A stretch of 64,000 bases of DNA from a virus (Duplodnaviria; Caudoviricetes). Below the pieces are notes generated by a model. That model was given only the letters and a program-made list of their open reading frames with translations, searched no databases and was not told where the DNA came from. A program made the translations under genes and the position numbers. Every line of letters starts with the position of its first letter. Within the stretch, counting starts at the first letter, position 1. The DNA is taken from IMG/VR virus record IMGVR_UViG_3300014204_000111, positions 96,001 to 160,000 of that record, one strand, 5' to 3'. Positions 4,818-25,582 of the stretch are shown one piece after another.

Positions 4818-4930
4818 AATATTATTTACCCAATTATTCTACTATTCCGAAAATTACGGAATTGTTTCTTTTCTTGTCAAGGTTAAATTTTGGTAAAATG
4901 TTTGAAATCCTGTGGTCTGGGTATAATATA

Positions 4931-5030
4931 GGGCAAGAGAGGAACAGGTTCGAGTCCTGGCCTGCGGACGAGAGAAGCGATTCTTTCTATCCGTGGTGTA
5001 AGGTAGTTTAAACGGTGAACACTCTTGCTT
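4931..5030 (+). ncRNA. Circularly permuted tRNA-like RNA #1 (YrlA-like topology)
   Basis: Ends pair GGGCAAGAG/CTCTTGCTT; T arm CAGG-TTCGAGT-CCTG; closed, extended acceptor hairpin; TA then D arm GTTT-AAACGGT-GAAC; starts just after TATAAT. Confidence 0.8.
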
Positions 5031-5050
5031 TAAATTTTGTGAGGTGCAAC

Positions 5051-6118
5051 ATGGACGAACATATCAAGAATTTTATTAACAATGCGTCTGAGCAAGAATG
5101 TGCTGTGCTTTCACTTATGATTTATGAGCGTAAGCGTTATCTTATTTCTAAAAGAGGATTAGAGGTTCTTTCTGAATTAAGAATAGGTAGTAAAGTTACA
5201 TTTAATGGTAATCAAGGCCAAGTATTTACAGGTAATATTACTAAAATTAATCGTAAAACCGCTAATGTTCATACTACGATAGGTCAAAATTGGAATGTTG
5301 CTCTGTCTTTGCTAAAGGTCATTGAATAATGACAAAGTATGCTGTTATTAAAGAACCAAATCCTTATGCTTGGAGTTCTGGTTGCACAGTTTCACTTACT
5401 GATAGTTTAATAGAAGCGAGAAGTTGGTATGATAATGATAAAGAGCTTATGAAAAATGGACATTATGCTTCAGTAAGTCTGGTAGAGCTTATAGTTATTG
5501 AAGAAGAAGATTGTCCTAATGCAATATTACAAGATAATGGTTCCCAAGATTAGGAGATAATATGTTATTATTTTTTGGTTGTTTATTTTTGTTAATTGGT
5601 ATTAGTGGTTTTATTCTTATGAAGATAAATCATAAAAATAAGAGTATATCTATCAGTATAATGCCTAAAATTGAAGAGGTTGATGGCAGGTTTCATATTA
5701 CCCATACAGATGGAACAGACAAGTGGTGTAATACCAAACAAGAAGCAAGAGATTTTTGCGATATGAAAGCCATTGAATGTTTGGATAAAATTAAGGCTGC
5801 ATTAACTAATTTACAGGATGATAAAAAATGAGAATGTTGGTGGTGATAGAGAATAGTTGGTCAGGACTTAAAGTTAAGTTAGTTTGTGATATTAATGATA
5901 TAAATATTGTTACAAAATATCGTGACAAAATAAAACATAATGTAAATAAAGATTATTTACCAATATGTATGCAATCATTTAATAATATATTAGCTAAAGC
6001 AAAAACATACAAACTTAAACCTGGAGAATGTAGAAAAATACAGTTAGCAAGTGGAGATAGACAATTTTTTGTAACAGAAGTTAATGTTTATAATATAAAT
6101 ATGGATATTGAATTATGA
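5051..6118 (+). other. Four small hypothetical genes (5051-5329, 5329-5553, 5562-5831, 5828-6118)
   Basis: Coupled ORFs; the first has an SH3-like C-terminus (G-x-ITKINRKTA...WNV). Confidence 0.7.
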
Positions 6119-6600
6119 TTAAAGTTGGAATTGCACCTTATTTAGAATGTAGTTCAAGAGGAAATAAATGCTTTTCTGCTTTTTATGCCAGGATTAAAAA
6201 GAGAAATAACTCTTCTATTGAAGAGATATATCAAGCATCTAAAGTTTTTGAAGATGGTTCAACAAACCTGAATATAGCAGAGGCCAGAGGAAAGGTCGCA
6301 ATAAATCAAGAAGAATGCTCTTTATTATATTCAATGCTTTGGGAAGAATACATTGCAGAGAATCCAGATTTAATTGAAATTTTAATTAATGCTACTGGTC
6401 TTTCAGATATGTATGGTCAGGAAGGCCATTGTTGTCAGGCTCTTGAGCTTTGGAGAATTAGAAATAACTTTATAGAAATAAAGAGTTTAAGTGATGATAT
6501 GTTAAAAGCCGCCGAGAGTTCAATGGGGTTTTGGGATAATGAAGAGGATGAAACTTGGGATGAATCTTTTGTGCCTGCTACTAATTGGGGTACTAAATGA
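6115..6600 (+). CDS. NADAR-like protein (resembles DarT1-associated NADAR/DUF6977 family)
   Basis: LECSSRG..FSAFYA...SIEEIYQASKVFEDG pattern resembles the LEISxKS..LSAFNL..VE..FQ.SKVFE consensus, recalled from memory. Confidence 0.5.
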   Translation: MIKVGIAPYLECSSRGNKCFSAFYARIKKRNNSSIEEIYQASKVFEDGSTNLNIAEARGKVAINQEECSLLYSMLWEEYIAENPDLIEILINATGLSDMYGQEGHCCQALELWRIRNNFIEIKSLSDDMLKAAESSMGFWDNEEDETWDESFVPATNWGTK

Positions 6601-6860
6601 TTAAAGCACCTTGGACAAATTGGCAACAAGAATCAATTAAAGCATTTCAATTAATGAATTTGCTTCACCCATTTACTTGTGGGAATGATTCATGCAGAGC
6701 AGAACATAAAGAAAGTTTGATAATTAATGATGGACTTCTTTATTGTCCTCATTGTGGATACACTCAGGATTGGGTTCACGAAATTATGGCAAATTGGCAA
6801 TGGATTTTTGTTCATTGCTCTAAAGAAGAGTATAGCCAATTCAAACAAAATTTAAAATGA
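6597..6860 (+). CDS. Zn-ribbon phage protein
   Basis: HPFTCG...CPHCGYTQDW. Confidence 0.6.
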   Translation: MIKAPWTNWQQESIKAFQLMNLLHPFTCGNDSCRAEHKESLIINDGLLYCPHCGYTQDWVHEIMANWQWIFVHCSKEEYSQFKQNLK

Positions 6861-7082
6861 GAACTAATATACTTAAATTTCATCTTTATTTGATTCGTAG
6901 ACATTTATCATATTTGCGTCGTCCTATTTTATTGAATCATAGAATTGATGATTTATTTTTATTAAGAAGAATAAATGGTCATACTCCTTGGTTTACAATA
7001 GGATGTAATAAAGTATGGAATTATATAAAAGAACTTTCTAAGGAGACGGTTTAGAGTCTGAAATTTTGGGTATAATAAAGTC

Positions 7083-7164
7083 TAGTGCGGAGATTCAGGT
7101 GCAAGTCCTGACTGCCCAGGCGAAAACGCCAGCAGATAGTTTAAGTAGCAGAATACCGCCATTG
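7083..7164 (+). ncRNA. Circularly permuted tRNA-like RNA #2
   Basis: GCGG/CCGC closing stem; T arm TCAGG-TGCAAGT-CCTGA; CTGC/GCAG acceptor capped by GGCG-AAAA-CGCC; TA-GTTT-AAGTAGCA-GAAT D arm; own promoter. Confidence 0.8.
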
Positions 7165-7196
7165 TTTAGTTCTTTATCTTTTTGGGTATAATACAA

Positions 7197-7270
7197 TGCG
7201 GGATAGAGAAGTAGTTACTCGGAAGGCTCATACCCTTCAAACGTGGGTGCAAATCCCACTCCCGCAACCA
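7197..7270 (+). tRNA. tRNA-Met(CAT)
   Basis: Acceptor TGCGGGA/TCCCGCA-A-CCA; anticodon arm GAAGG-CTCATAC-CCTTC; T arm GTGGG-TGCAAAT-CCCAC. Initiator/elongator/Ile2 class not resolved. Confidence 0.9.
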
Positions 7271-7285
7271 TTTTGGAGGTTAATT

Positions 7286-7495
7286 ATGAATACTTCGCTA
7301 CTTAAAGAGAAAGTAAAAGAGTTAATCTCTTTATTTGAAGATATTAAGTGTGCTCAGAAAGAATATGAAGAAGAAATGCTTTTCTTATCTCTTTTTGCTG
7401 ATACCTTGAAATGGATGGATGAACATTCTCGTTCTGGAGCAGCAAAACAATTAAAATATATTTTTGAAAAAAGGATTGAAGGAAAGAGTTATTAA
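7286..7495 (+). CDS. Hypothetical protein
   Basis: GGAGG RBS then ATG 7286; the longer ORF-track start overlaps the tRNA. Confidence 0.7.
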   Translation: MNTSLLKEKVKELISLFEDIKCAQKEYEEEMLFLSLFADTLKWMDEHSRSGAAKQLKYIFEKRIEGKSY

Positions 7496-7507
7496 TTAGT
7501 TTAACAA

Positions 7508-7583
7508 TGAGAGTGTGGTGTAATCAGGTAGCACGCATTTTTTGGAAAAATGGGGCGCAGTTCAAATCTGACACTTTCAACCA
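7508..7583 (+). tRNA. tRNA-Pro(TGG), atypical T stem
   Basis: (T)GAGAGTG/CACTTTC(A)-A-CCA; D arm GTG..GGTAGCAC; CATTT-TTTGGAA-AAATG; TTCAAAT loop on a short stem. Confidence 0.75.
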
Positions 7584-7900
7584 TATTAATAGGAGAAAAA
7601 TGATAAATGAATTTACATTATGTTGGCAGATATGATAATGGAGTTTTTACTGAATCACCTGTAAAAGAAATGTCTAAAGAAATATTTTGTGATGGAATGG
7701 GTAGTCAATGGAATTATACTTTTCGAGATATAGATTTTTTCTTTTATAGACATGGTTTTAAGATAGAAGTAGAAGATGATTTGGCTATTACAAAAATTGG
7801 AGATATCATTTATTATTTCACAATAAGTTAATTTTTGAAAGCTTGTTTGAAGTCCTGTCTATTGGGTATAATAAAGAGTGAAGGAAGGAACTCCTTTACG

Positions 7901-7993
7901 AATAGGAGAAGCAGGATTCGATTTCCTGCCATCGCGGATGTGATGTAGTTTAGTCTGGAATACGTCTGCTAGCAAGACAGTAAAACACCTATT
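7901..7993 (+). ncRNA. Circularly permuted tRNA-like RNA #3 with expanded D loop
   Basis: AATAGG/CCTATT; GCAGGA-TTCGATT-TCCTGC; CATCGC-GGAT-GTGATG; TA-GTTT...AAAC enclosing a GTCT/AGAC hairpin. Confidence 0.8.
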
Positions 7994-8033
7994 TTGAAAA
8001 GCCTGTTTAGAATCCAGTAAAACGGGTATAATA

Positions 8034-8148
8034 GTGTTGTAAAGGTAAAGATGGAAGTTCGAATCTTTTCTAGTGCGTTAAAACCCTGCGGTTCTTGCGG
8101 GGGAGCGTTAGTAGCATAAATGGAATAATGCGTTACTGAATTTGACAC
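8034..8148 (+). ncRNA. Circularly permuted tRNA-like RNA #4
   Basis: GTGTTG/TGACAC plus GGTAA/TTACT interrupted terminal stem; GGAAG-TTCGAAT-CTTTT; CTAGTGC/GCGTTAG acceptor with inner hairpin; TA-GCAT-AAATGGAATA-ATGC D arm. Confidence 0.8.
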
Positions 8149-8269
8149 CCGCCACTCGCGGGACATAAGAATGATAAATATGTCATTTCTTTATAAAGAG
8201 GAAACTTCTTTCCTCTAGTTTTAACGGAAGGATTTACAAAGTAAATCCTTCCCTCTTGAACCTTGAAAA

Positions 8270-8925
8270 GTTTGTGTCTAATAAGTTAGAAGAGACGAGT
8301 TGGCTTGCTATTACTGCAAAGCAAGTGAGTGAACCAAAACAGTCTCATATTGAAATATGATAGAGTAAGGAGCTGGACTAAATGTTGCTGCTGGATGCGC
8401 GATATTTAGCCTTACTCATTGTAAGGACGATGTAACGTAGAAAGTACACGTACTCTTTAAGAGATTCGTAGGAAATCTTAGTTTTTCCGTCCAGTTTGAA
8501 AGCAATTGCTGTACCTGACCTGATAGTGGTAGGGGTATGAGGATAGCGAATCATATTTATGGAATCTTACAGATTGACGAATCTATAGGATAAACTATCT
8601 TACGTATGAATTGATTCGTCAATTCAAGAAGCTGCAACTGTTAGGTTGTAGGACTGGTGGGCGTATATAAGATTAAATGCCGCGACCAGTTTGTGATTTT
8701 ATAATCCGAAGAGGATGTCCACCTTCGTTAAAACCTGCGTTGTGTGTTGGCACAGTCAACAGAAAAGCGGACTAATCGTGGTTGACGTTTAAGAGGGCCG
8801 CGACTCTTTATTAACGCGGGTGAAAGCTCTTAAATTGAGAGTGATGGTGAATTATCTTTGGGATAAATTGTGACCATCTAGCGGCCAGCGCTGTGTTGGT
8901 AGATTATCTATCACACTACTGGATT
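8270..8925 (+). ncRNA. Large ornate structured RNA candidate (GOLLD/ROOL-like class, family unassigned)
   Basis: ORF-free, visibly GC-richer than flanks, nearly continuous helices and at least one pseudoknot (AGCTGGA 8371 / TCCAGTT 8490); next to tRNAs. Confidence 0.65.
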
Positions 8926-8958
8926 TTAATATATAATTTTTAGTATAATTTTTAGAAA

Positions 8959-9260
8959 AGATTCTTCTTTGTTTTGCAGTGGCCTTGTCCTAATCTGCTA
9001 GAAGAATCTGTATTTTACTTTGAAAAACTTTAGGATTCAAGTACCTAAGAAACTTAATGTTGTATGATTAGCAACTTCCTAAACGCAAACTTTGAAAATT
9101 TGCAAGAAAAAATAATCAAATGCCATTTCCTTGGCTCACTAATAACTAGATACTTTTAGTGAAAGGAAAGCCATTAGGACGTGTAAGGCTTTAATCTACG
9201 CCCTTAAAAATTGAATCATCGGTCGATTGATGGTGGAAAGACACAAAACCTACCTTTTTT
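8959..9260 (+). ncRNA. Further structured non-coding segment ending in a U tract
   Basis: Hairpin 8959-9009; TTTCCTT..CACTAA/TTAGTG..AAGGAAA; CATCGGTC/GATTGATG; GTG-GAAAGA-CAC; T6 near 9255. Confidence 0.5.
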
Positions 9261-10650
9261 AGAAAGATATTTAAACGGAGGGAAACAACCATCTAAAGAT
9301 AGATGGTTGTTTCATATTATATGAAATTTACCATATGTATTGTATTTGAAATTGAAGAAACTAGTCTTGAAGAAGCTAAGATTAGTGCAGAAGAATACAA
9401 AGAAACATTAGAAGAAGAAAGCAATGGAACAGATTATATTACTCCTGGCTCTTTATCTACTTATGTGACTCAAAAAACTTGTGAGTGTGGAGGAGAAATT
9501 GATTATTATTCTTGGGGAAGAGGAGGAGATTATATCTCCGAAGCTATATGTAAGTCATGTCACAAAGATTTTAATAAGGAATAATATATGTCTAAAAAAG
9601 AGAAGTTAATATATCTTGTGGCTAGAATATATTATGCAGCTAAATGGACAATTACATACAATTCTCTTGACCCATTTAAAGAATTTATTTATACAAGTAT
9701 ATGGGCAATTGATGCTGACCCTAATGGGATTTAAAATATTCTTATTATTAACAGCATGGGAAATGTCTTGTTGTTTTGATTTTTGTAATAGAAAATTAAA
9801 AACAGTTTATTATAAATATAGAGATTTAAATAGACATTGCCCAGGAATGAATATTAAATTAGTGCGTAGGAAAATTTATGAACGTATGCATAACAATCAA
9901 TAATAATATTACTTATGATTATTTTGATAAAAACGATATATATCTGTGGCTTTCTGGAAGGTTTCTATTTACAAAACCAGAAGTGAGACAGAATATAGCA
10001 TATGAAATAATAAATTATGGAAGTTCTGAGTTTTATCATTATAATGACCTTTATCATCATAATGACCATATAATAATAAAAACTACAATGATTAATTGCG
10101 ATTTAGAGATATGAAATGATTAATACAAAAGCTTTGTTTAATATAAGATTTTATGGTTTTTTACATCGTATTATGTATAAATACTTAGTAGCTACTAGAA
10201 TGAGTTGGAATGAAGAAGAAAAAATTAATGATTTTTATAGGAGACATTATCCTATAAGTTGGGGATATGATAGCATAAGTATATCTTACAAGTCTTTCGG
10301 TAGCTTAATTATAGATACTTTAATTATTATATTAGGTCTTATTACATTAATATTTATTAATGTAGAATCATATGATACAAAATAAAGCGTTATAAACATT
10401 ATCAATTTGACCGCAATAATACGATAAGAGCGCAATAATAGAGAATGATATAGAACTATACATAGTGATATATCGTTTTTTATTTACTCTTTATTGAAGG
10501 CTAAGTCTTGCTTAGGAGTCTATTTTACCCTTATAGCTGAAAGCGTAACATTTTAGTTAAATGATAAAAAGAGTATTTTATATATATTTAACACAGCTAG
10601 TGTTTAGAAGCTAAGACTTCGGGTATAATAGACCATTAGGAGATGATTTT

Positions 10651-11382
10651 ATGAGTAGAACAATTGTAATTCCTGACGTACATCATAGATGGAATTTAGC
10701 ATTAAAACCTTTAGAAATTACGGCTAATAGATATATCTTTTTAGGAGATTATTTTGATAATTTTGGTGATACATTAGAAGATACGGCTAATACTGTACGT
10801 CAACTTATTGAATTATCTAAGCGAGATGATGTTACTTTATTATTCGGTAATCATGATATTGGTTATCGTTTTAAAGGCTTTGAATGCTCTGGTTGGACAA
10901 AAGAAAAGTGCGATTTAATTAATAAAATGATGCCTGCCGAAGTATGGGAGAAGATGCAATTAGTTACTTATGTTGATGGATTTATTCTTTCTCATGCTGG
11001 ATTGGCTGAAAGTATTTTTAGTCATCCTATTGATGGCATAACACCAGAATATGTTGCTAAGTTATGCGTTGAAGGATTGGAACATGCTCAATTAGGTATT
11101 TATACTCCTGCTTTAACACCTGGACAAGCTAGGGGTGGTCGTCAAAGACAAGGTGGCCTTGATTGGTTAGACTTTAATCAAGAATTTGCACCAATTAAAG
11201 GAATAAACCAGATTTTCGGTCATACCCCAGCACCTTCCGCAAGACAAAGTAGCACCGAAGATTCAATTAATTGGTGTATTGACACTCATTCAAAAGGGTT
11301 TGTCATTCTTGAGAATGGCAAGGTCTTTCCACAAGAGATTAAAATGGTTGATTTTTTAAAAGATAAATTATCCGAAGTTTAA
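10651..11382 (+). CDS. Calcineurin-like metallophosphoesterase
   Basis: DVH, GDYFD, GNHD, SHAG and GHT motifs in canonical order. Confidence 0.92.
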   Translation: MSRTIVIPDVHHRWNLALKPLEITANRYIFLGDYFDNFGDTLEDTANTVRQLIELSKRDDVTLLFGNHDIGYRFKGFECSGWTKEKCDLINKMMPAEVWEKMQLVTYVDGFILSHAGLAESIFSHPIDGITPEYVAKLCVEGLEHAQLGIYTPALTPGQARGGRQRQGGLDWLDFNQEFAPIKGINQIFGHTPAPSARQSSTEDSINWCIDTHSKGFVILENGKVFPQEIKMVDFLKDKLSEV

Positions 11383-11828
11383 CCTTAGAAGTGTTTATAA
11401 TTCTTAGAAATGGGGATAATACAATTGAAGTGAAAGGAGAATTGTAATGTCTAAGCGTAGTGCTAAAATAAAGAGGAAAGTAGGCAGGGCTTTAGAACAT
11501 ATTGCTTATAAGTTAACAGCTTCAGGAGTAGGCAAACACAAGTCTGTGCGCGATTATAACAGAAAGAATAAGGATTGGAAGAATGAGCAATCATAAAGAG
11601 CAAAAGAGGGAACGTAAGTTCTGGATTGTTAAAATTAAGGAAAGGGATGGGAATATTCCACCTGAATACAAGATAGTTGAAACAAACAAAAGACCAAAGA
11701 ACGCTGTATTTCAAAGTAAAGACCAATATTATGAGTCTAAGAATACAGCAGAAGTCCAGATGAATTATATTTTAAATGAAATATTCAGTTCGTGTGATGG
11801 TACAAGGTTTGACTAATAGGAGAAATCA

Positions 11829-12260
11829 ATGTTTCAAATTAAAGTAAAGTTTACTTGTCCTTTGTGTGGAAAAGAATCAGAAGATGATGACCCTGCAATT
11901 TATGGACAAGAAGAATCACAAAGTTGTGACGGTTTTATTGCTGTAACTTGCTCTCATTGCAAAGAGGATATCGAATTTTCTGACAGATATGGAGAGGGTT
12001 GGACAGGCGAAAAGATGCCGAATTATAATGCCTTTTAGGAGTAAGAAATGAAAGAACGTACCCGTTGTATTAAGTGTAGTGTCAAAATTGAATACAAATG
12101 TCCTCATTGTCATAAAGATATTAGTGAATCTGATGCCATCTATTCCTGTCAAGATGGTTTTGACAATGCTTTTCTTGGTCTTATTTGTCCTGAATGTAAA
12201 AAAGAATTTGAGGTTGAGAATGTTATGGATGGAGAATGGGTATTTCGTTGGTATGAATAG
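11829..12260 (+). CDS. Two tandem paralogous Zn-ribbon proteins (11829-12038, 12048-12260)
   Basis: Shared K..(F/Y).CP.C.K(E/D)...AIY...C..CK pattern. Confidence 0.7.
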
Positions 12261-12591
12261 ATATTTAACTAAAAGAGTGTTTCTTAGCTCTTTATCCTGG
12301 GTATAATCATGTATCAAACCAAGGGAGAAACAAAGATGAAGAGCAGAAAGAAAGCGCAGGTCTTTAGAGTAGTAAAATGGATTATGCATGAGTATCCATC
12401 GGGGAATACTATGGAAGATTACGTTAAGTTTAATGAATTGTTGCAAAAGGCTTGTGATTGGGTCAATCGTACAGGTTTGTTTCTTAAGCCTCAATCTGAA
12501 GAACCAGAAGTTTGGGGTTAATTTAACCTAAAGAGTGTTTGAAAGCCTCTTTACCGGGTATAATATAGCATCTTTGAAGGGAGAGTTTAAA

Positions 12592-12900
12592 ATGGAAAAG
12601 AAACAGAAGTTGAGCACTTTAACCCTTATTGGCATCATCGCATCTTTTGAGGATGGTCGGCGTCTGATTCAGGTTAATCGTGAGGCAAAACTTCAGGCAA
12701 TAAAAGCAATTCGTGATATTACTGGCCTGGGTCTTGTGGAAGCAAAACTTATTTCTGACTATCTCTTTCTTTGTACTAATGCTGACACTTTCACCGTGGG
12801 TGCGCAAGAAATGATTCAATTCTGCGAGTCTTACATTCTCTCGTTGACTAGCAAAGAGAACGAAATCCAGTCGTTGTTCGACAAATTCAACAAGTTTTAA
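12592..12900 (+). CDS. Ribosomal protein bL12 C-terminal-domain-like protein
   Basis: KLQAIKAIRDITGLGLVEAK matches bL12 KI.VIK.VR.ITGLGLKEAK; own promoter and RBS. Confidence 0.75.
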   Translation: MEKKQKLSTLTLIGIIASFEDGRRLIQVNREAKLQAIKAIRDITGLGLVEAKLISDYLFLCTNADTFTVGAQEMIQFCESYILSLTSKENEIQSLFDKFNKF

Positions 12901-13819: not shown

Positions 13820-13985
13820 ATAGCAAAAGAGTCTGGATTGCAAACAGTACGGTTCAGATGTTTAAACCTTTTTTGGCTGACACTGGTAAGGATTGGTGTA
13901 TAAACTGCCTTCGTGGTGGGCGAACACGTTAAACTGAATCTGATTCCCGGTGATGACCAGCACCTTAAACTGGTTGTCTTTTTTA
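13820..13985 (+). ncRNA. Small RNA with three tandem H-type pseudoknots
   Basis: Own promoter at 13808; repeated stem-loop + TAAACTG + loop complement; ends in T6. Confidence 0.6.
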
Positions 13986-16821: not shown

Positions 16822-16842
16822 TCAGGAACATTAATTGGATTA

Positions 16843-16866
16843 AGGCCAGGGAAACCTGGCCTTTTT
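16843..16866 (+). terminator. Intrinsic terminator
   Basis: AGGCCAGG-GAAA-CCTGGCCT followed by T run. Confidence 0.8.
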
Positions 16867-16945
16867 AATATATATTTAATCTCTTTTATGTTTAAGAATC
16901 TAGGTAAAGGGGAATAATATATTATCAATAAAGAGTGAGGATGAA

Positions 16946-19900
16946 ATGCATAAGTTTAAGGTTGAAGATTTAGTTGTGATTCAAGAGAATCCTTTCCATC
17001 GGGCTTTGATTGGTACTTATGGTATGGTTGAGCAAGTGTTTGGTGGGAATGATAATACTACACCTGTTTATTCTATTGTTACGGAGCGTGGAATTTACAC
17101 TTTTACAGAGCAAGAATTGAAGGGAGAATAATTCAATGATGAACAAGTATGAATTATTCGGTTATTTATCATTCTTAGGTTTTCATCCTAAGTATGAAAA
17201 ACCAGTAAAACGTCATAGTATGACCTTCCAGATTATTAGCTTTACCATTGGCGATAGAGATGTTTACTTTGAAGGTGATAATTATTGGTCATTGAATGAA
17301 CATAAGACTAATCCTGACCGTTCTCTTTACTTTGGTGGTGGAAGTAAACAAAAAGAAATTCAAAAGTCTATTAAACTTGTTGAATCTGGATTTACAGGTG
17401 TTGAACCACGGGTTATCTGGAAGGATGACGTTGTTATTATGCATAATCCATTCTATGATAATATAAAAAGTAAGGAATTTCATGGTCGTGGTTATTATGA
17501 GTTAGAATTACCTATTGGTCATAAACTAGCAGACAGGATTCCAGAGGGTCTACCATATAATTAGAATTTAACCTAAAACTTGTTTCACATATAGAGAGCG
17601 GGGTATAATAAGATATTCAAGAGTTAGGAGAATTAAATGGCTGTTCAAAGTATCTGGAAAGTATTAGGTGATGTGATGATTGCTAATATGGAAGCAGAAA
17701 AGCAAGCAGAAATTAAGGCAAGCGAAGCATTTACAACTGAAGAGCTTTTTGAGGAAGCTTCTAAGTTGTTACGTGAATGGACTAAATGTACGTTTGCTAA
17801 CATCTTCTTGCGTTATTCTCCTCATACTTATATTGAAACTATTAAGCGTAAAAAAGTTGAGGTTCCTGGTGCTGCTTGGCATGTCTCAGGAAGTTATAAA
17901 ACTTATATCTGTGGAATGTCTCACGAAATTGAAATGGAAGGAGCTAGGCTTGGTTATACGCCTAATCACGCTCTTTGGGTGTTCTTGGAAGGTCTTAAAA
18001 AGAGGATTTCATCAGAAGCTAAGAAAGAAAGTGTTTAATTTCTTCTCCGCAGGGTATAATACTGTATCAAAGCAAGGGAGTCAGAAATGACCAAGTTTTC
18101 AATTACCATTAATGAAGAGAACGATGAAGAGATTATTAAATTGGTTAAGACTTTTCTTTCGACTGTCTGTAATAGTCTGCCGTTGGTTGAGGTTGAGAAT
18201 CAAGCTAAGACTGCTTGGGACATTACCAAAGAGCAGGTTAAGCACTTTATCTATATTAATCATCAGCTATATACCACGAGAAACATTGCAAACGCATTTA
18301 ATATGTCGATAACAGATGCTAAAGCAATGCTAAATGCTTTGTGTGATGAAGGTAAAATCCAGAAGAATATCTTTGGAGATATGGACAAACTTACTACCTG
18401 GAGTTCACCAAGTTTTAATCATTAATCTGTTATCTTTGCTCTTCACCGGGTATAATATAGTATCTTTGAAAGAGAGGAACAAAATGTTTAACCAATTCGA
18501 CCTGAACAAGTGGCATAAGAATCAAGTTGATACTGGTAAGTATAGTTCTGAGCATGGCGCAGAAGATTTAGTTTGTGCCGATGGTTTCTCAATGAGTGTC
18601 CAGGCTTCCGAAGGGCATTATTGCACGCCTAAGCGTAATTTTGCTCCGTGTTATTCTCATTTTGAAGTTGGTTATCCTAGCAAGTATCAAAGTGAGCTAA
18701 CACGTTATAAGCAGGGTCGTGGTAAGGCTACTGAGTCTGTTTATGCTTATGTTCCTGTTGAAGTGTTGGAGTCTCTTGTTTATAAGCATGGTGGAGTGAA
18801 GAAATGATGATTGCTAATATTGAAGTAAAGTCGTTAGTAAATATTCATCCAGATGATTTCACTGGATGTGAACATCAATGGATAGAGAATCCATATGATT
18901 ATGATTCTTGCCAAACTCAAGTTGTTTGTTCTTTGTGTCACTGTCCAGGTGAATTAGACGAAAAGACGGGAGAATTGGTTTATCCTACAACTTAAGAGGT
19001 AAAGAGATGTCTAAGTGTGTAATCTGTGATAAAGAGTTAAAGAAATCTATTGGAGCATATGTCAATGTTGAGTGTGATTTAATTCACTTTCAAGATGACA
19101 ATGCTTGGCCTTGCTGTCCTGATTGTATTGCAAGATATGAAGATAAAGAGCATTGGACAATTGAACAAGCGAGAGAGTGCGAACAAGAAAGGGAGAATAG
19201 TTAATGATAAATAGAGATAGGCTCAAACATCATAAGAGAATCAAGCGCAATAAGATGTTTTTAAGATATCATTCTTGTCCAGAAGGTAGATATTGTCCTT
19301 GGTGTCAAGAAACGAGACAGTATCAGATAAAGAGAGAAAGAGAAAGACTCAAAGACCAGGAGAAAGAGTTAATCGAAGTTTAATGATTAATTGGTTTGTT
19401 GCTCTTCATCCTGGGTATAATACAGTGTTCTGAAAGGGAGTGAGAAATGGTTAATCTTGATAAAAACGAAGTGAACAATCTTATTCTTGCGGTAGGCGTA
19501 GAAATCTTTGCGCAGCAAGCATTGCAAAGTATCAAGAACATTCGTGCTGCCGGTCTTGATACTCCTGATGGTATTGGTATTAAAACTAGCAAAACCTTTT
19601 ACGATTGGTTAATGTTTAATTATCTTCCTTTGGGAGTGAGGTCTTTTATTATCACTGAGGAATCAGTTAAGGGTTTTATCAATGCTTTAACCCATGACCT
19701 TGTAGATATTAATTTTGCTGAAAACCTAAAGGCCAAGCAAAGTTTTTGGGCAAAATATGAAGTAGATGATTAGACTTCTTGTTTATCGGGTATAATAAGG
19801 CATCTCAGAAAGGGAGAACGAAATGTTAAAGGGCGAAGTACATTTTGATAAAGATGGCAATGTTATTGGTTGGGGTGTGTGGACTAATGGTGGAATTGAA

Positions 19901-22900
19901 GGTGGCGATTGTGTTTATGAAGAGAATGCTGTTGGTATGTTCTATTCTCAAGCATTAGCAAGAGCACAGGCTAAGGCACTCGAAATGGAAGGCCAGCCAC
20001 TTCCTATCTATTCTAATGATTCGCAGCGTGTGGATGCCCTTGTAGAGCTTCTTAAGACCTATCTTAGCGATGATGGGATGGCGGAAGGTGAGGGCGGTGG
20101 ATGTTATACGACGAAGGGACAGCTTGAAGTTGAAGAGAAGATGAACGCAATCCTAAAAGGGAGATAAAATGTTTAACAAGCCAAACAATTTTGTACATCC
20201 TAATGGTTTTGGGAAGGTTAACAAACCACCCAAAAGGAAAGGCCAAAAGACCTTTGGCTATCGTTTCTGGTCTTTTGTGTATTTTTGCTCTTCTGAAGTT
20301 TCTCGTCGTGCTTCTCGTAGAATGATAAAAATGATAAGAGGAGAATAGAATGGCTTGGCTTATCTTCCTAATTCCTATCTTGTGTGTTGTAGCATCCTTT
20401 ATATGGCCTACCAAGTGTCCTAAGTGTGGCTATCATGGATTAAATTTAGCTTGGCAAGATAAGAAATTGTTTGGTAAATATCGTAGATATTATAACTGTC
20501 CTTGTGGACATAAATGGAGTGTGGGAAGATGACAGGTCAAGAGGCGGGAGTATTAGAGAAGAAATTAAAAGCGTTATATCCTAATGCAGTTATTAGTGCA
20601 TATATAACTGATAGAATCCATTGTTCCGAAAAGATTATTCATAATTGGTCTATTTCAATTGAGTTTCCTTTCTCGACTGTTCAAGATGTTGATAATTTCT
20701 TAACTCTTTATCCTGTAAAGGTGTAAAATGTTAGTATGGTTAATTGACGCGGTACAAGAAAATGCTTGTGGCGATACAAAATCATTTATGGTACATGCTT
20801 CATCTACAAGAGAGAAAGCGGAAGCTTGGGTTAAAATGCAGCAAGATAAACATAAAGATTATATGCCAAAGTATGAATATATCATTAGTGGCTATACTCT
20901 TGATGTAGAGGATTTAATCCAAGTTTAACTAGAGACTTGTTTCTTTGCTCTTCACTATGGGTATAATTAAGAGTAAGTCAAGGGAGTAAGAAATGGAAAC
21001 GATTTTGTTAGTTAGTTATAAGCCAGATAAGACCAGGCGTATTAGTGCTACATTCTTTTATTGTAAGCAAAAGGATTGGGACGACGAACCTTTGCACCAA
21101 GTTACTGATAAGGATTATAAAGCAGTAATCCTTTGGGCGAAAGTTATTGAGGAACAGAAAGGAAAGGACGTTCATATAGATATTCTTCAACATCTGCTTG
21201 ATAGTATTAAGAATGACCAAAAGCATAGTTATGAGTCTGAAGATTGGTTTATCCAGTTTGTGCCTTGTATCTGTTCTTAAAGGATAAAGAGATGAAAGTA
21301 AGCGTATTGATTAAACACCTTCGTAAGTATACAGTAAAATATAAATTAGCCAAGCAATCTTATCTTTACGCAATGAAGAGAGATTGGAGTTTTAAAACTA
21401 AGTGGCGTTATTTTAAATGGGCTATTGAACCATTATTTCGATAGGAGCACGAAATGAAAGCTAGTACATTAATTACACAACTTTGTGAGTGTCTTATCAG
21501 TAATACTATAATTGGACAAGATAAAGAGACAATCATTCGTGCTAGAGCTGCTCTAATAAATGCAATCAAAGCGGCTAATTCTGATTGTGATGTTTGCACA
21601 GAAGATATAAACTTTGATAGTGTAGAATTTAAAGCAGCTATTCTTTTGGTGTTTGATGATTGCCCTAAAAATAATTACATTGATATTTTACCTAAGACTG
21701 ATTAGTTGCTCTTTATCTGGGGTATAATAAGGCATCTGAGAGGGAGAACAACAAAATGGCTAAGATTACTTTCGATTATAAGTGTAACCGTTGTGAGCAG
21801 GATGTTCGTAACACGAATGTTCAAGTAGGTATTAATCAAAGTTGTGATTATGATTCGTCTATTTCGATTGATACAACCTGTCCTGTGTGTGGTCAAACAA
21901 TGACTTGGGACTATGATGGTTTTAGTGATTGGACAGCCTCTTACGAGCCTTACAAAGCTCCTGACGTGGATTATAGCAAGCCTGCCAGTGATATTAAGTG
22001 CGAAATCTGCGGCAAAGGTCAAAGCAATCACGACGAATTTAATAGTATCATTCGTGGTAACACTACAATGTTTCGTCGTGTTTGTTCTGAATGCAGGAAG
22101 GATTATATCTTTCGTGAACATCCTATCTGTGATATCTGTGGAAAGACTAACAATCGTGATATTAGTATATGGCAACGTCTGGTAGATAACAAGTTTCAAA
22201 CTATCTATACTTGTGAGGATTGCTTTAATAAGGCGTTTAATAAAACATAATGTATGGTAAGAATATTACAAAATGTAGGTTTCTTAAACATATATATGTA
22301 AAAATAGCTCAAAGGATATGGCCTTATCATCTTAGACAGTGGAAGTTTTTTCGTTTTAGAGGAGTAAGAAATAAAAATATCAAAGCTATTATGGAAGATA
22401 TATAGAATGATAAAGAGAGGTTCTTATCGTTATGGTATGGTTATACTTAGAGAAGAATGGAATCGGTGTAAACACAATGGACATATATAATCTTTGCTCT
22501 TTATCTTGGAAACAATGATGATGCAACTACTTACATGTATTAAGAGAAAGATAAGGATAATAACATCGTATTTTAACTCTTATGTAAATTGTAAATTATC
22601 TACAAGGTTAAGATATTTAGTAACTCAAGCTAAATATAGAAAACATGTTGGTAAAAGAGCAATGACAATGAGGAAATAATGATGAATTTACTTAAGTGCG
22701 TAAGAATAACAATAAGGAAAAGAACGCCACACTTTAACTCTTATATAAGAAATAACTTATCTTTAAGATTAAAAGATATGATATTTAACAAAAGGTTAAT
22801 GGAATGGGCGTACAAGGAAATTATAAGTGCTAAAGCTGAATCAGTAAAATTTCCTCCAAGACAGTTATGAGATTCTTTAACAGCTTAAAAATGGCTAAAA

Positions 22901-23360
22901 GGATATATCGTTTTTGTTTACGTATGGTTGAAATATCATCAAATCTTAATAAAATATCTATGTTCAAAGAATTATGTAAACGCTGGCATAATTGGAATGG
23001 ATTCTAACTCTTTTGCTCTTTATGTTTGAATGAGAATAGGAGAATACACAAGAGATGAATATAATAGATATATATGAAATATGTAAAGAGAAGTTTATAG
23101 GATGGTTAGATAAACAATGTTATAATTCGTATATTTCGTTATTCCCTTTTACGATGTGGGGGAAGTTACACAAACAGATAATGGTGTATTATGATACTAA
23201 TATGAAGGTAACAGGTTTATCTAATACGGAAATAGAAGAATTAGCGAAGGAATATACTTACGGTTATATTAACTTATTTTGGATTCCTTTATCTATAATG
23301 ATTGGGTTGATAGGTATTATTGTAGGATGTTTAGGCATTATTATAGGGTGTTTTATATAA
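16946..23360 (+). other. Run of ~25 small hypothetical early genes, many Cys-rich, many under their own promoter
   Basis: For example 17136-17564, 17637-18038, 18087-18425 (wHTH-like), 18484-18807 (CADGFSMSVQAS..HYC.P conserved phage family), 19447-19773, 19823-20167, 21756-22250 (multiple CxxC). Confidence 0.7.
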
Positions 23361-23393
23361 ACACCGCAATATAGGGTATATAACTAATTCTAC

Positions 23394-23468
23394 ATCGTTT
23401 TCAAACCAATTATTATAGATAGTTTATCGTTTTCATAGATAGTTTATCGTTTTCAAACCAATTATTAT
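23394..23468. repeat. Nested direct repeats in AT-rich intergenic DNA
   Basis: ATCGTTTTCA x3, ATCGTTTTCAAACCAATTATTAT x2, ATAGATAGTTTATCGTTTTCA x2. Confidence 0.85.
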
Positions 23469-24039
23469 GGGAAAAGCTAGGTCTTTTATATATTTAAAAA
23501 TCAATCTCAAACAATCTACATATCCCCACAACTTAACCAATATCTAACAAAGTGTTTTACAAGACTACAAAACCTCATAAAAGACCCACATTTAAAGATA
23601 AAGAGCTTAAATTCTAAGTAACCTGTTTGAAATCTTGTCCTTCGGGTATAATATAGCAGCGGGGAAGGGAGCGAGAGGAAAGCTGCTCTATGACCTCTCT
23701 TTCCTGATACCAATAGGAGTGCAATATATGTTGATGAAGTTGTCAAGTTGTTGTTGGGCAGAAGTCTTTGATGAAGATAAAGAGCCTGAATGTTCAAGTT
23801 GTGGCAAAAAGTGTCAAATTATTGAACATGATGTGCCTTTAGCTAAAGATGAAGATTCTTAATCAGGATTTAACCCAATTTTTATTGACATAAACACCAG
23901 CATATGATAATGAGACTGCCTCCCAGAAAGACACGCTTGCCCCAGGTGAGTTAAAAAGGTTTAATTAGTATTTAACCACACAACTGTTTTAAACTCTCTT
24001 CACCGGGTATAATTAAGCATCAGAACGAAGGAGCAAGAA

Positions 24040-24567
24040 ATGAGTAACACAGTGGTCTTGAAATGGGATAGTGATTATAACTCATCAATGGACATTAACA
24101 GCCACTTTCTCGACTTGTGGAATCGTGAAGAGAAGAAATTCGAGACTAAATGGTATGGCGATACCTACAACTTCGATTATAAGTGGATTGATGAAGCTGG
24201 TGGCTGGGCTTCTGAAGAGGATAAGGAAGAGGCTTTCCAGGCTGTCATTAAGCGTGACTTGGAAGGTTGGATGCGTGACCAGCGTATCAAAGATGAAGAG
24301 AAAGAAATGGGCGATGATTGCACTGTGGTTCGCGGAAAGAAAGTTCCGCAGGGAACCAAGGGACGCATCTTCTGGATGAAGGAAGTGCCTAAGTATCATT
24401 CCTATGGGCGTGACTTTGAATGGCGCGCAGGCATTAAAGACCAGTATGGTGATGTTCACTGGCTGCCCCTGTGCTACTTGATGAAGGACACAGTGGAATA
24501 CACTCCGCAAGAGGATGTCATTGCAGAGCATAAGGCTTACTACATGAGGAAGTGGAGCCACAAGTAA
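24040..24567 (+). CDS. Conserved phage hypothetical protein
   Basis: VVRGKKVPQGTKGRIFW motif; promoter, RBS and terminator present. Confidence 0.75.
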   Translation: MSNTVVLKWDSDYNSSMDINSHFLDLWNREEKKFETKWYGDTYNFDYKWIDEAGGWASEEDKEEAFQAVIKRDLEGWMRDQRIKDEEKEMGDDCTVVRGKKVPQGTKGRIFWMKEVPKYHSYGRDFEWRAGIKDQYGDVHWLPLCYLMKDTVEYTPQEDVIAEHKAYYMRKWSHK

Positions 24568-24584
24568 GATACGATGGAGAATAT

Positions 24585-24613
24585 GGCCTGGGGAAACCCA
24601 GGCTCTTTTTTTT
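24585..24613 (+). terminator. Intrinsic terminator
   Basis: GCCTGGG-GAAA-CCCAGGC followed by TCT8. Confidence 0.85.
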
Positions 24614-24735
24614 AACTAAAATTTGGCTTGACACCAAGGGCTTCATATGATAATGAGCTGAGCATAGGACATAAGAGTGTTTAACCAGATTTTCACTCAG
24701 AAAGTGTTTGAAAGCCTCTTCACCGGGTATAATAA

Positions 24736-24815
24736 GATACCCTAGAGACTTGGGTGCGAATCCCAACTGCCCGTCGCAGGGTACATCGTCTAAGAGTAGG
24801 ATACTAGGCTGTATT
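24736..24815 (+). ncRNA. Circularly permuted tRNA-like RNA #5
   Basis: GATAC-CCTAG / CTAGG-ct-GTATT bulged terminal stem; TTGGG-TGCGAAT-CCCAA; TGCCC/GGGTA; TC-GTCT-AAGAGTA-GGAT D arm. Confidence 0.85.
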
Positions 24816-24832
24816 TTTGTTAGGAGTTTACA

Positions 24833-25129
24833 ATGAACATTCAAGACTTGATTAATGCCCCTAGGATTGTCGTTCGTAACAGCAGAGGCCAGCTTGTTGG
24901 TGGGATGCCATCTTACAAGGTTCACGAACCTAACGCGAAGATTAAGAGCGTTCGTCAGTTCTTTGGCTATCTGATGCATTCATCCTGGGGAAAGAACATT
25001 CAGGATGCCACTATGGAAGCCTACAATGCCCAAGGTGAGCTTTTGGCACGTGCTTCTGTGTCCACCACAGGGACGCATCCTAACGGTCATCCTAAGCGTT
25101 CTGTGAAGGTCTCATTCACGAAAGTTTAA
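24833..25129 (+). CDS. Hypothetical protein
   Basis: AGGAG RBS; VVRNSRGQLV resembles LVRDSRTGRFV in the 12978-13304 ORF. Confidence 0.7.
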   Translation: MNIQDLINAPRIVVRNSRGQLVGGMPSYKVHEPNAKIKSVRQFFGYLMHSSWGKNIQDATMEAYNAQGELLARASVSTTGTHPNGHPKRSVKVSFTKV

Positions 25130-25228
25130 CCAAGAAACCTGTTAGAACCTTGAAAGTTGGGGTATAATTAAGAGTGAGGGAAAGAAAGCTTCCCAAGTTT
25201 GAAAGGCTGCTTTAGCGCCAAAGATTGA

Positions 25229-25301
25229 AAGCGGAAGGTGCGGGTGTAAGGCCCGTGTGTCAGTAACTCTGGCAGTAGACTAAATAATAGGTCAGCCGCT
25301 T
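25229..25301 (+). ncRNA. Circularly permuted tRNA-like module #6
   Basis: AAGCGG/CCGCTT; GCGGG-TGTAAGG-CCCGT; TGTCAG/CTGGCA; TA-GACT-AAATAATA-GGTC. Confidence 0.7.
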
Positions 25302-25497
25302 GTTTGAAAGCAAAGACAATCAATAGTTTAGGGGTTAGAACGCCAGACAAGCATGGTCGCACCTGTAGATGGTAGGGCAGCTTCGGACGCTGCTTGATTG
25401 TTGGATGCTAAAGAAGGATGGTTGGCACTTACCAAAAGTCCGCCGCATTGAAAGGCTGCTAGAAGCGCCGTTTATGAGACTGTCTAATTAACAGTTA

Positions 25498-25582
25498 GCA
25501 AGGAAACGAGAGTGCAATCCTCTCTGCTGATTTAGCAAGTTGCAAATTGCCTTAAGCATCGTCTAGTAGAAGGACGCCTTGT
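25498..25582 (+). ncRNA. Circularly permuted tRNA-like module #7
   Basis: GCAAGG/CCTTGT; GAGAG-TGCAATC-CTCTC; TGCT/AGCA with inner hairpin; TC-GTCT-AGTAGAA-GGAC D arm. Confidence 0.8.

What the first reader, a model, noticed from the sequence alone, without database searches (positions are those of the whole stretch)
4931..25582. Battery of at least seven circularly permuted, anticodon-less tRNA mimics
Seen at 4931-5030, 7083-7164, 7901-7993, 8034-8148, 24736-24815, 25229-25301 and 25498-25582. The order is always: terminal stem 5' strand, 4-5 nt linker, T arm, acceptor stem closed by a loop or hairpin, TA/TC, D arm, terminal stem 3' strand. The RNA ends replace the anticodon arm and there is no free CCA end. 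Stem sequences differ completely while the geometry is kept. Five lie directly behind their own early promoter. Established: this is the topology of bacterial YrlA Y RNAs, which bind Ro60/Rsr and are usually few in number and next to rsr; no Ro60 gene is visible in this window. Inference: a diversified panel of tRNA-elbow decoys that cannot be charged or cut at an anticodon, possibly sponging tRNA-targeting defence nucleases, tRNA-binding sensors or host Rsr-PNPase.
Basis: partly seen in the sequence, partly recalled or inferred. Interest (0 to 1): 0.92.

Follow-up and report, generated by a model that had tools for sequence, protein, structure and literature searches.

The report
Seven sealed, anticodon-less tRNA mimics in phage
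A 221-kb phage carries seven small RNA genes shaped like tRNAs with the two halves swapped, the acceptor end sealed and no anticodon loop, most behind their own early promoter and with no Ro60 partner gene; the design resembles bacterial YrlA Y RNAs, but its function is untested.

Summary
All seven loci have the order terminal stem, linker, T arm, capped acceptor-like helix, U8-N9, D arm, one purine, terminal stem. They keep the tRNA core nucleotides U8, G10, A14, R26, U54 and A58. A covariance model finds exactly these seven in the 220,861-bp genome (40-61 bits; next best 19.7). A descriptor found five, against none of comparable GC in 40 shuffled genomes. Twelve of 14 modelled pairs change on both sides. 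Five elements follow a GTTTGAAA...GGGTATAAT early promoter. A TerL-51% relative has one e3-like copy in the syntenic interval, with a different terminal stem. An unrelated viral contig has a promoter-element-terminator copy.

They are not YrlA members. The Rfam YrlA model gives no hit, the GNCGAA motif is absent, and the complete genome has no TROVE/Ro60 or RtcB. No conserved neighbouring protein was found. The phage has about 20 tRNAs, an Rnl2-type RNA ligase and RlaP.

Best reading: Ro-independent, tRNA-derived shape mimics made early in infection, acting on tRNA-body-binding factors. The decoy function is inference only; no RNA data exist. This scan has already noted permuted tRNA mimics in many other phages, there beside Ro60-like or DUF7873 genes. 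This is a new variant of a known kind.

The parts
4900..4927 (+). early promoter of e1 (GTTTGAAA ... GGGTATAAT)
   Evidence: one of about 40 plus-strand copies of this promoter consensus in the early region; the -10 ends 6 nt before the terminal stem
4933..5028 (+). e1: terminal stem 7 bp, T loop UUCGAGU, long capped acceptor with GCGA tetraloop, UA, D arm GUUU/GAAC with GG. It forms the 5' leader of ORF 5051-5329.
   Evidence: 57.6 bits; permuted cloverleaf 1.9 kcal/mol above MFE
7049..7076 (+). early promoter of e2
7087..7159 (+). e2: terminal stem GCGG/CCGC, T loop UGCAAGU, acceptor 4+4 bp with AAAA cap, D arm GUUU/GAAU without GG. It is followed at once by the promoter of tRNA-Met.
   Evidence: (60.9 bits)
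7845..7872 (+). early promoter of e3; a small hairpin lies between it and e3
7901..7993 (+). e3: 6-bp T stem plus 6-bp acceptor capped by GGAU, D stem GUUU/AAAC with a hairpin inserted after the GG of the D loop. A counterpart lies in the relative at L067:2352-2446.
   Evidence: (39.8 bits)
8005..8032 (+). early promoter of e4
8039..8136 (+). e4: terminal stem GUAA/UUAC starting at the predicted transcription start, 10-nt linker, T loop UUCGAAU, 7-bp acceptor (G1-C72, C2-G71, G3-U70) capped by a hairpin, UA, D arm GCAU/AUGC with GG. Weakest fold of the seven.
   Evidence: 47.3 bits; 7 kcal/mol above MFE
24706..24733 (+). early promoter of e5
24741..24808 (+). e5: terminal stem CCUAG/CUAGG, T loop UGCGAAU, 5-bp acceptor with 6-nt cap, D arm GUCU/GGAU. 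It forms the 5' leader of ORF 24833-25129.
   Evidence: 57.6 bits; the cloverleaf is the MFE
25141..25168 (+). early promoter of the non-coding unit that holds e6, a normal-order tRNA-like RNA and e7
25229..25301 (+). e6: spacing closest to a tRNA. It has a 5-bp T stem, 7 acceptor positions (6 bp plus a G-G) capped by UAACU, UA, and a 4-bp D stem.
   Evidence: 57.9 bits; the cloverleaf is the MFE, z -2.9
25498..25582 (+). e7: terminal stem GCAAGG/CCUUGU, T loop UGCAAUC, acceptor 4 bp plus internal loop plus 4 bp, UC, D arm GUCU/GGAC. It has no promoter of its own.
   Evidence: 46.2 bits; the cloverleaf is the MFE

Best explanation
The seven loci are genes, or 5' leader modules, for tRNA-derived, circularly permuted tRNA mimics.

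Each RNA starts at or near an early-promoter transcription start with the strand that corresponds to the 3' side of the anticodon stem. It then runs through a variable-loop-like linker, a T arm, an acceptor-like helix sealed by a loop or hairpin, U8-N9 and a D arm. It ends with the strand that closes the terminal stem.

The kept tertiary-contact nucleotides, and the matched D-loop/T-loop flavours, imply an L-shaped tRNA body with an intact elbow. That body has no anticodon loop and no free CCA end, so it can neither decode nor be charged as made.

Shown:
- the architecture
- its statistical significance
- covariation among paralogues and in two other viral lineages
- promoter linkage
- absence of Ro60, RtcB and YrlA sequence features

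Inferred:
- The RNAs accumulate early in infection.
- They act through their shape, by occupying or recruiting proteins that recognise the tRNA body. Candidates are RNase P or RNase Z, T-loop and D-loop modification enzymes, the CCA-adding enzyme, tRNA-directed defence nucleases or sensors, and the phage's own RNA-repair enzymes.
- This fits a genome otherwise invested in tRNA supply and repair.
- They most likely arose from the phage's own tRNA genes by tandem duplication and loss of the outer halves.
For: Architecture and significance.

The two elbow flavours co-vary perfectly. U55 goes with GG in the D loop in 4/4, and G55 goes with no GG in 4/4. The same two flavours, and the same UAGUUUAA D arm, occur in the phage's own tRNAs.

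Promoters of the same consensus also drive tRNA-Leu, tRNA-Phe and tRNA-Met. In e1, e4 and e5 the predicted start falls at the first base of the terminal stem.

e2, e3, e4, e6 and e7 are not followed by an ORF.

The relative at TerL 51% identity has one e3-like element in the syntenic interval. It has a different terminal stem and acceptor, the same GUUU/AAAC D stem with an inserted hairpin, and a terminator behind it.

The unrelated contig IMGVR_UViG_3300006147_000194 has a promoter-element-terminator copy at 40.4 bits. There the cloverleaf is the MFE, with z -3.2.

The genome holds about 20 tRNAs, an Rnl2-type RNA ligase and RlaP.

Against: There is no transcript, end-mapping, modification or binding datum.

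The thermodynamic signal is mixed. z-scores run from -0.1 to -3.2. The permuted cloverleaf is the MFE for only 3 of 7, and for e4 it lies 7 kcal/mol above the MFE.

The acceptor-like helices are heterogeneous, which argues against one common enzyme that measures a 12-bp stack.

e1 and e5 sit in mRNA leaders, so at least those two could serve mRNA stability or processing instead.

Only one copy was found in 68 kb of the nearest relative, so the battery as such is not conserved.

No element is a recent copy of an extant phage tRNA, so the origin is inferred from shared arm motifs only.
Confidence: 0.5

Rival explanations
1. Processing or stability modules. The tRNA-like fold is a substrate for host RNase P, RNase Z or RNase E, or a 5'-terminal protective structure. 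It would define and stabilise the ends of early transcripts. Copies with a 12-bp T-plus-acceptor stack and a small cap (e3, e4, e6) would be opened by RNase P and perhaps given CCA, yielding two-piece RNAs.
For: e1 and e5 lie between a promoter and a Shine-Dalgarno/ATG. The 5' end is predicted to be base-paired in e1, e4 and e5. M. smegmatis YrlA, which has a 7-bp acceptor stem, is cut by RNase P and receives CCA (PMC4201824). e3, e4 and e6 have stacks of 6+6, 5+7 and 5+1+6.
Against: Five of the seven have no downstream ORF. e2 is followed directly by another promoter. RNase P cleavage inside a sealed acceptor would not release an mRNA. The acceptor helices of e1, e2 and e7 continue past internal loops. 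No CCA is encoded, although many of the phage's tRNAs encode it.
Confidence: 0.2
2. RNA subunits of an RNP with a dedicated protein partner encoded elsewhere in the phage or host. This would be analogous to the Ro60-like or DUF7873 gene-RNA units that this scan has noted in other phages.
For: Earlier scan notes report permuted tRNA mimics beside a Ro60-shaped protein, or beside DUF7873, in many phages and bacteria. e3 and e4, and e6 and e7, are tandem pairs like the double-module RNAs described there.
Against: The genome has no TROVE domain. Pfam and PHROGs scans of ORFs beside the elements, and of most ORFs of 170 aa or more between 53 and 131 kb, gave no hit to DUF7873 or any RNA-binding family. 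The 654-aa unknown protein looks like GP88, not Ro60. The terminal stems share no common handle. The three lineages that carry elements share no neighbouring protein.
Confidence: 0.1
3. True Y RNAs that hijack the host's Rsr (Ro60)-PNPase machinery.
For: The T-AS-D topology is the same as in YrlA.
Against: There is no RF02553 hit at E<=10, no GNCGAAN0-1G motif, and no long Ro-binding stem, since the terminal stems are 4-7 bp and unrelated in sequence. The phage has no rsr gene, and the host is unknown.
Confidence: 0.07
4. Non-functional relics of tandem tRNA duplications, or rearrangements driven by homing endonucleases.
For: The tRNA-rich region carries several HNH genes, including one at 4314-4817 (-) just upstream of e1. 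Tandem tRNAs with identical acceptor stems, the presumed precursor state, exist in other phages.
Against: All four helices are intact in all seven copies, with different sequences. The tertiary nucleotides are kept. Promoters are placed exactly at the 5' strand of the terminal stem. Related copies in two other lineages keep the fold.
Confidence: 0.08
5. Circularly permuted tRNA genes that mature into working tRNAs after end-joining, as in Cyanidioschyzon merolae.
For: The 3' half precedes the 5' half, and the phage encodes an Rnl2-type RNA ligase.
Against: No anticodon-loop sequence is encoded at either end, and the terminal stems are of unequal length (4-7 bp). The acceptor helices are irregular and carry no encoded CCA. 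There is no RtcB. Primary transcripts carry a 5' triphosphate at the stem.
Confidence: 0.03

Closest known systems
YrlA (Y RNA-like A; Rfam RF02553), the tRNA-like Y RNA of bacteria and mycobacteriophages bound by Ro60/Rsr (Chen et al. 2014, PMC4201824; Wang et al. 2018, bioRxiv 10.1101/312249)
   Same: The order is the same: 5' stem strand, linker or V region, T arm, capped acceptor-like stem-loop, D arm, 3' stem strand. The tRNA tertiary nucleotides are kept. There is no free CCA end and no anticodon loop. The acceptor stem-loop varies in sequence and length.
   Different: The Rfam model gives no hit, there is no GNCGAAN0-1G Rsr motif, and the terminal stem is short and not conserved. No Ro60 gene lies nearby or anywhere in the genome. 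There are seven copies with their own promoters, against one or two beside rsr. The T and D stems are not near-invariant, as they are in YrlA.
Permuted tRNA-mimic modules noted earlier by this scan in other phages and bacteria, beside a Ro60-shaped protein or a DUF7873 gene (unpublished AI notes)
   Same: The module is the same sealed-acceptor, anticodon-less permuted tRNA. It often lies in phage tRNA regions and sometimes occurs as tandem pairs.
   Different: Here there is no conserved partner gene next to the elements and no shared handle stem. Each copy is a short unit of its own with its own promoter, rather than a domain of a 330-465-nt RNA.
Circularly permuted tRNA genes of Cyanidioschyzon merolae and some other algae and archaea
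   Same: The 3' half is encoded upstream of the 5' half, and the acceptor strands are joined by an intervening loop. A likely origin is tandem duplication.
   Different: Those genes encode a complete tRNA, including the anticodon loop, and mature through a circular intermediate. Here the anticodon loop is missing altogether.
Two-piece (permuted) tmRNA
   Same: It has a permuted tRNA-like domain in which the T arm and acceptor 3' strand precede the acceptor 5' strand.
   Different: There is no tag reading frame and there are no pseudoknots. A full D arm is present. ARAGORN finds no tmRNA.

Membership tests
YrlA (RF02553) | Match to the Rfam covariance model (gathering score 69 bits) | tested here: not met
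   best hits in the whole genome are 13 and 11.3 bits, at other sites. None of the seven is listed at E<=10. The cmscan at E<=10 over both clusters also found nothing.
YrlA (RF02553) | Encoded within about 4 kb of a Ro60/TROVE gene on the same strand | tested here: not met
   PF05731 has no match at E<=1 in the complete 220,861-bp genome, while the control genomes with Ro60 did match.
YrlA (RF02553) | GNCGAAN0-1G motif near the 5' end (putative Rsr contact) | tested here: not met
   a regular-expression search over each element plus or minus 15 nt gave no match.
YrlA (RF02553) | T arm, acceptor-like stem-loop and D arm in that order, with tRNA tertiary nucleotides | tested here: met
YrlA (RF02553) | Binding by Rsr/Ro60 | not testable with these tools
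   This needs immunoprecipitation or in vitro binding, and the host is unknown.
tRNA (RF00005) | Cloverleaf in normal order with anticodon arm and free acceptor end | tested here: not met
   ARAGORN and the Rfam tRNA model call only tRNA-Met and tRNA-Pro in the window. The elements lack an anticodon arm.
Circularly permuted tRNA genes (C. merolae type) | A complete tRNA sequence, including a 7-nt anticodon loop, recoverable by joining the ends | tested here: not met
   The sequence beyond the terminal stems is promoter on the 5' side and shows no consistent loop-like sequence on the 3' side.
Two-piece tmRNA | tRNA-like domain plus tag reading frame and pseudoknots | tested here: not met
   ARAGORN with tmRNA search found none in the window or genome. 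Only e4 has a G3-U70.
DUF7873-associated double tRNA-mimic RNA (scan-internal) | A DUF7873 gene directly upstream of the RNA | tested here: inconclusive
   Pfam on the ORFs beside the elements, and on most ORFs of 170 aa or more between 53 and 131 kb, shows no DUF7873. I could not run a genome-wide search because I did not know the family's accession, and one guess was wrong.

The most novel reading that the evidence does not exclude
The phage deploys a Ro60-independent, multi-copy panel of uncleavable and unchargeable tRNA bodies. They are expressed from strong early promoters and come in the two elbow flavours of its own tRNAs. They would soak up or misdirect host factors that recognise the tRNA body, in particular tRNA-directed defence nucleases or sensors, and so form an RNA-based counter-defence that complements the phage's tRNAs, RNA ligase and RlaP.
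Probability: 0.15. Interest if true: 0.85.

Novelty: new variant of a known kind. Interest (0 to 1): 0.62.

Why it matters
tRNA-shaped RNAs with a sealed acceptor and no anticodon loop are known in print only as the effector module of YrlA Y RNAs, which sit beside Ro60. Here the same module stands alone, without any Ro-binding part or Ro60 gene. It is multiplied seven-fold behind individual early promoters, in a phage that also carries tRNAs and RNA-repair enzymes. Similar stand-alone copies occur in two other viral lineages.

If these RNAs are made and stable, the tRNA-body mimic would be a self-sufficient functional unit that phages use on its own. That would give a direct handle on which host or phage proteins read the tRNA elbow during infection. 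It would also explain part of the ORF-free, GC-rich sequence in jumbo-phage early regions.

Tried and rejected
- Rfam at gathering and at E<=10 gave no family on any element.
- blastn of both clusters against INPHARED phages gave no match.
- Relatives through neighbouring proteins. The 175-aa ORF upstream of e5 has no homologue. The 161-aa ORF has four homologues in unrelated contigs without elements. The 77-aa anchor ORF found only itself. Its alignment with the relative's copy found nothing in metagenome contigs.
- TerL alone and as an alignment found no close relative in IMG/VR.
- A promoter pattern scan of IMG/VR gave 32 single hits, which is chance level.
- A pattern scan for T arm plus TAGTTTAA gave 119 or more loci, almost all tandem tRNA genes. 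Of 120 matches, 55 lay in two ARAGORN tRNAs and 52 in one. R1 scores such junctions at 25-38 bits, so R1 is not specific inside foreign tRNA clusters. Only IMGVR_UViG_3300006147_000194 is a clear stand-alone copy.
- The metagenome record of the relative could not be searched whole. I walked it in 10-kb steps instead.
- Sequencing runs: no RNA holder is listed. Two DNA runs (landfill, the likely source; groundwater) hold the identical phage, so they gave no variants for covariation.
- Ancestry test against permuted versions of the phage's 20 tRNAs: only arm-level similarity, no element-to-tRNA match above shuffled controls except the e3 arms against tRNA-Val.
- A guess at the Pfam accession of DUF7873 was wrong.
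- CCA-adding enzyme (PF01743): no match in the genome. Rnl1 (PF09511): no match either, but its control rang in no genome, so that search is uninformative.
- I rejected the dimeric-tRNA artefact that Chen et al. warn about. No anticodon arms flank the elements, promoters abut them, and both the acceptor and terminal strands pair with each other.

Full report
**Source**

The window is bases 96,001-160,000 of a 220,861-bp IMG/VR virus record with direct terminal repeats, rated complete. The genome is about 30% G+C. The Rfam tRNA model gives 22 matches and ARAGORN 20. A long plus-strand early region is full of small ORFs, each behind a promoter of consensus GTTTGAAA-N11/12-GGGTATAAT, with about 40 copies between 60 and 129 kb. 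The same DNA occurs in a landfill metagenome (probably the source) and, identically, in a groundwater metagenome. No RNA run holds it.

**Observation**

I parsed every locus into fifteen consecutive segments: terminal 5' strand, linker, T stem, T loop, T stem, gap, acceptor 3' strand, cap, acceptor 5' strand, junction, D stem, D loop, D stem, nucleotide 26 and terminal 3' strand. The concatenated segments reproduce the sequence, and every delimited helix is fully paired.
- Terminal stems are 4-7 bp and unrelated in sequence (GCAAGAG, GCGG, AAUAGG, GUAA, CCUAG, AAGCGG, GCAAGG).
- Linkers are 4-5 nt, except 10 nt in e4.
- T stems are 4-6 bp with a 7-nt loop of the form U-[U/G]-[C/U]-R-A-N-N.
- The acceptor-like helix starts 0-1 nt after the T stem. 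It has 3-7 proximal pairs and is closed either by a 4-6-nt loop (e3, e5, e6) or by a further hairpin (e1, e2, e4, e7).
- The junction ends in UA or UC, the D stem is 4 bp and starts with G10, and one or two nucleotides, the first a purine, precede the terminal 3' strand.

The tRNA core nucleotides are kept: U8, G10, A14, R26, U54 and A58 in 8 of 8 (seven plus one relative); A21, C56 and G53-C61 in 7 of 8; a pyrimidine at 48 in 6 of 8.

There is a clean tertiary covariation. The four RNAs with U55 have GG in the D loop, and the four with G55 have none. The phage's own tRNAs show the same two flavours: Trp, Glu, Phe and one Met have UGC T loops with GG-less D loops. They also use the same UAGUUUAA D arm in Val, Glu, His and Trp.

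**Significance**

- A covariance model built on the T, D and terminal helices finds exactly the seven loci in the whole genome at 39.8-60.9 bits. The next hit, at 19.7 bits, is a tRNA T arm.
- An independent hand-written descriptor recovers five of the seven. Forty genomes shuffled in 5-kb blocks with dinucleotides preserved gave 2.3 AT-rich hits on average and none with G+C of at least 0.42.
- On the model-fitted alignment of eight sequences, 85.7% of cells pair, against 63.5% after shuffling. Twelve of 14 pairs change on both sides, no shuffle in 500 reaches the observed values, and sliding the partner by 1-3 columns drops the covariation score from 0.74 to 0.10-0.28. That alignment leans towards the model, so I give most weight to the slid controls and the descriptor test.
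- Thermodynamics is mixed, as it is for real tRNAs. The permuted cloverleaf is the MFE for e5, e6 and e7. It lies 1.9-3.9 kcal/mol above the MFE for e1, e2 and e3, and 7 kcal/mol above for e4. z-scores run from -0.1 to -3.2.

**Transcription units**

e1 to e5 each follow a consensus early promoter. In e1, e4 and e5 the usual start, 6-8 nt after the -10 element, falls on the first base of the terminal stem.

e1 and e5 are followed within about 25 nt by a Shine-Dalgarno sequence and an ATG, so they are mRNA leaders unless cut off. e2 is followed directly by the promoter of tRNA-Met, e3 by the promoter of e4, and e4 by hairpins and a roughly 1-kb ORF-free stretch. e6 lies 60 nt behind a promoter, in a G+C-rich non-coding unit that also holds a normal-order tRNA-like RNA and e7.

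**Relatives**

The phage is isolated. TerL has only five homologues at 48-70% identity, all on metagenome contigs.

I walked 68 kb of the 134-kb contig carrying the 51% homologue (JGI 3300037067, Ga0378408_0000204). It is syntenic around the terminase gene. It contains one element, L067:2352-2446, in the interval bounded by the same two conserved genes that bound e1-e4 in our phage. This element resembles e3: CAGG/CCUG T stem, UUCGA loop, UA, D stem GUUU/AAAC and a hairpin inserted after the GG of the D loop. Its terminal stem (GAGUAG/CUACUC), acceptor helix and inserted hairpin differ, and an intrinsic terminator follows it. No other copy was found in those 68 kb, so the battery is not conserved as a set.

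A pattern scan of IMG/VR was swamped by tandem tRNA genes, the false positive that Chen et al. warned of. It did yield one clear stand-alone copy in an unrelated, 29% G+C viral fragment (IMGVR_UViG_3300006147_000194). That copy has a TATAAT box, a 10-bp terminal stem, T arm, capped acceptor, UA, D arm and terminator. It scores 40.4 bits, its MFE is the cloverleaf, and no tRNA gene lies in the 3 kb scanned around it. The three lineages share no neighbouring protein.

**What it is not**

- Rfam's YrlA model gives no hit on any element, and the GNCGAAN0-1G motif thought to contact Rsr is absent.
- The complete genome has no TROVE/Ro60 domain, no RtcB and no CCA-adding enzyme.
- Pfam and PHROGs find nothing for the ORFs beside the elements, apart from an HNH endonuclease upstream of e1. 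Scans of most ORFs of 170 aa or more in the early region show enzymes typical of jumbo phages but no candidate RNA partner. These enzymes are a NAPRTase, an isochorismatase, a DNA ligase, an Rnl2-type RNA ligase, RlaP, metallophosphatases and a sigma factor. A 654-aa unknown protein looks like GP88, not Ro60.
- ARAGORN finds no tmRNA.
- The elements are not dimeric-tRNA artefacts. No anticodon arms flank them, and both the acceptor and the terminal strands pair with each other.

**What it most likely is**

The shared arm motifs and elbow flavours point to descent from the phage's own tRNA genes. The simplest route is tandem duplication of a tRNA followed by loss of the outer halves. This automatically yields complementary terminal (anticodon-stem) and acceptor strands. 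Tandem tRNAs with identical acceptor stems exist in other phages. No element is a recent copy of an extant tRNA, though.

Several features argue for selection on the tRNA-like three-dimensional body rather than on any sequence. All helices are maintained with unrelated sequences, the tertiary nucleotides are kept, and the promoters are exactly placed. [quoted passage not shown]

I therefore read the seven as Ro-independent tRNA-body mimics, made early, that act on proteins which recognise the tRNA body. Whether they are decoys, scaffolds or substrates cannot be decided from sequence. The processing and stability reading fits e1 and e5 but not the five copies without a downstream gene.

**Comparison with earlier scan notes**

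This scan has already recorded permuted tRNA mimics in many phages, typically as a domain of a longer RNA beside a Ro60-shaped protein or a DUF7873 gene. Those are unchecked AI notes, and I used them only as leads. Neither partner is present beside the elements here, and there is no shared handle stem. What is particular to this phage is the number of copies, their independence (own promoters, short terminal stems) and the lack of any linked protein.

**Verdict**

It is a new variant of a known kind: the YrlA-type tRNA mimic without the Y-RNA part. Its function is open.

Noticed in passing
window 2392-2523: Behind an early promoter lies a roughly 117-nt RNA with two T arms. The outer part is a normal-order tRNA-like frame (acceptor GGGCGAG/CUUGUCC-A, T arm GUGGG-UUCGAUU-CCCAU). 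Where its anticodon arm would be, it holds an inner permuted module (stem GCGG/CCGC, T arm ACGGA/UCCGU, 7-bp acceptor GGGGUAU/AUACUCC capped by about 5 nt, stemless GG-containing D loop). This is in effect an eighth permuted module, and R1 does not detect it.
   Followed up: partly
window about 25312-25405: A normal-order tRNA-like RNA lies between e6 and e7 and is missed by ARAGORN and Rfam. It has an 8-bp acceptor ACAAUCAA/UUGAUUGU, UA, D arm GUUU-AGGGGUUA-GAAC, an irregular middle region and a T arm GCAGC-UUCGGAC-GCUGC with G at position 58.
   Followed up: partly
window 25700-25790: A 15-bp stem encloses an 8-bp hairpin with a T-loop-like UUCGACU loop and is followed by a U run. It lies behind the promoter at 25603 and has no D arm.
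   Followed up: no
window 8149-9313: After e4 come three strong hairpins and then about 1 kb without an ORF of 50 aa or more on the plus strand. There is no Rfam hit, GOLLD and ROOL included.
   Followed up: no
genome 84999-103270 (tRNAs Trp, Glu, Phe, Met): Several bona fide phage tRNAs have G instead of U at T-loop position 55 (UGCAAGU, UGCGAUU, UGCAAUU, UGCAAAU). The same tRNAs lack GG in the D loop. This is a non-canonical elbow shared with e2, e5, e6 and e7.
   Followed up: partly
genome 91911-92000 and 79845-79940 (upstream of the window): Two further odd tRNA-like sequences are not called by ARAGORN. One has acceptor CCGCAGA/UCUGCGG, a 5-bp D stem and an anticodon-like loop CUUAUAA. The other ends in T arm ACGGG-UUCGAUU-CCCGU followed by CCUGGGC-A.
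   Followed up: no
window 450-1226; genome 88071-89081 and 75974-76885: RNA-repair-type genes lie in the tRNA region: RlaP (PF10127), an Rnl2-type RNA ligase (PF09414) and an ATP-dependent DNA ligase. RtcB and the CCA-adding enzyme (PF01743) gave no match. Rnl1 (PF09511) also gave none, but its control rang in no genome.
   Followed up: partly
L067:925-1300 and L067:6946-7750 (relative contig Ga0378408_0000204): The relative has a TTGACA/TGGTATAAT promoter followed by about 350 nt without an ORF, and an 800-nt ORF-free gap. Both lie in the interval syntenic with e1-e4 and may be counterparts of this phage's non-coding RNAs.
   Followed up: no
L093:367-440 (IMGVR_UViG_3300013121_000030): A tRNA-Gly is followed after 6 nt by a second tRNA-like gene whose acceptor 5' strand (UGCGGGAG) is the exact complement of the first gene's acceptor 3' strand. 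This is the tandem state from which a permuted element could arise.
   Followed up: no
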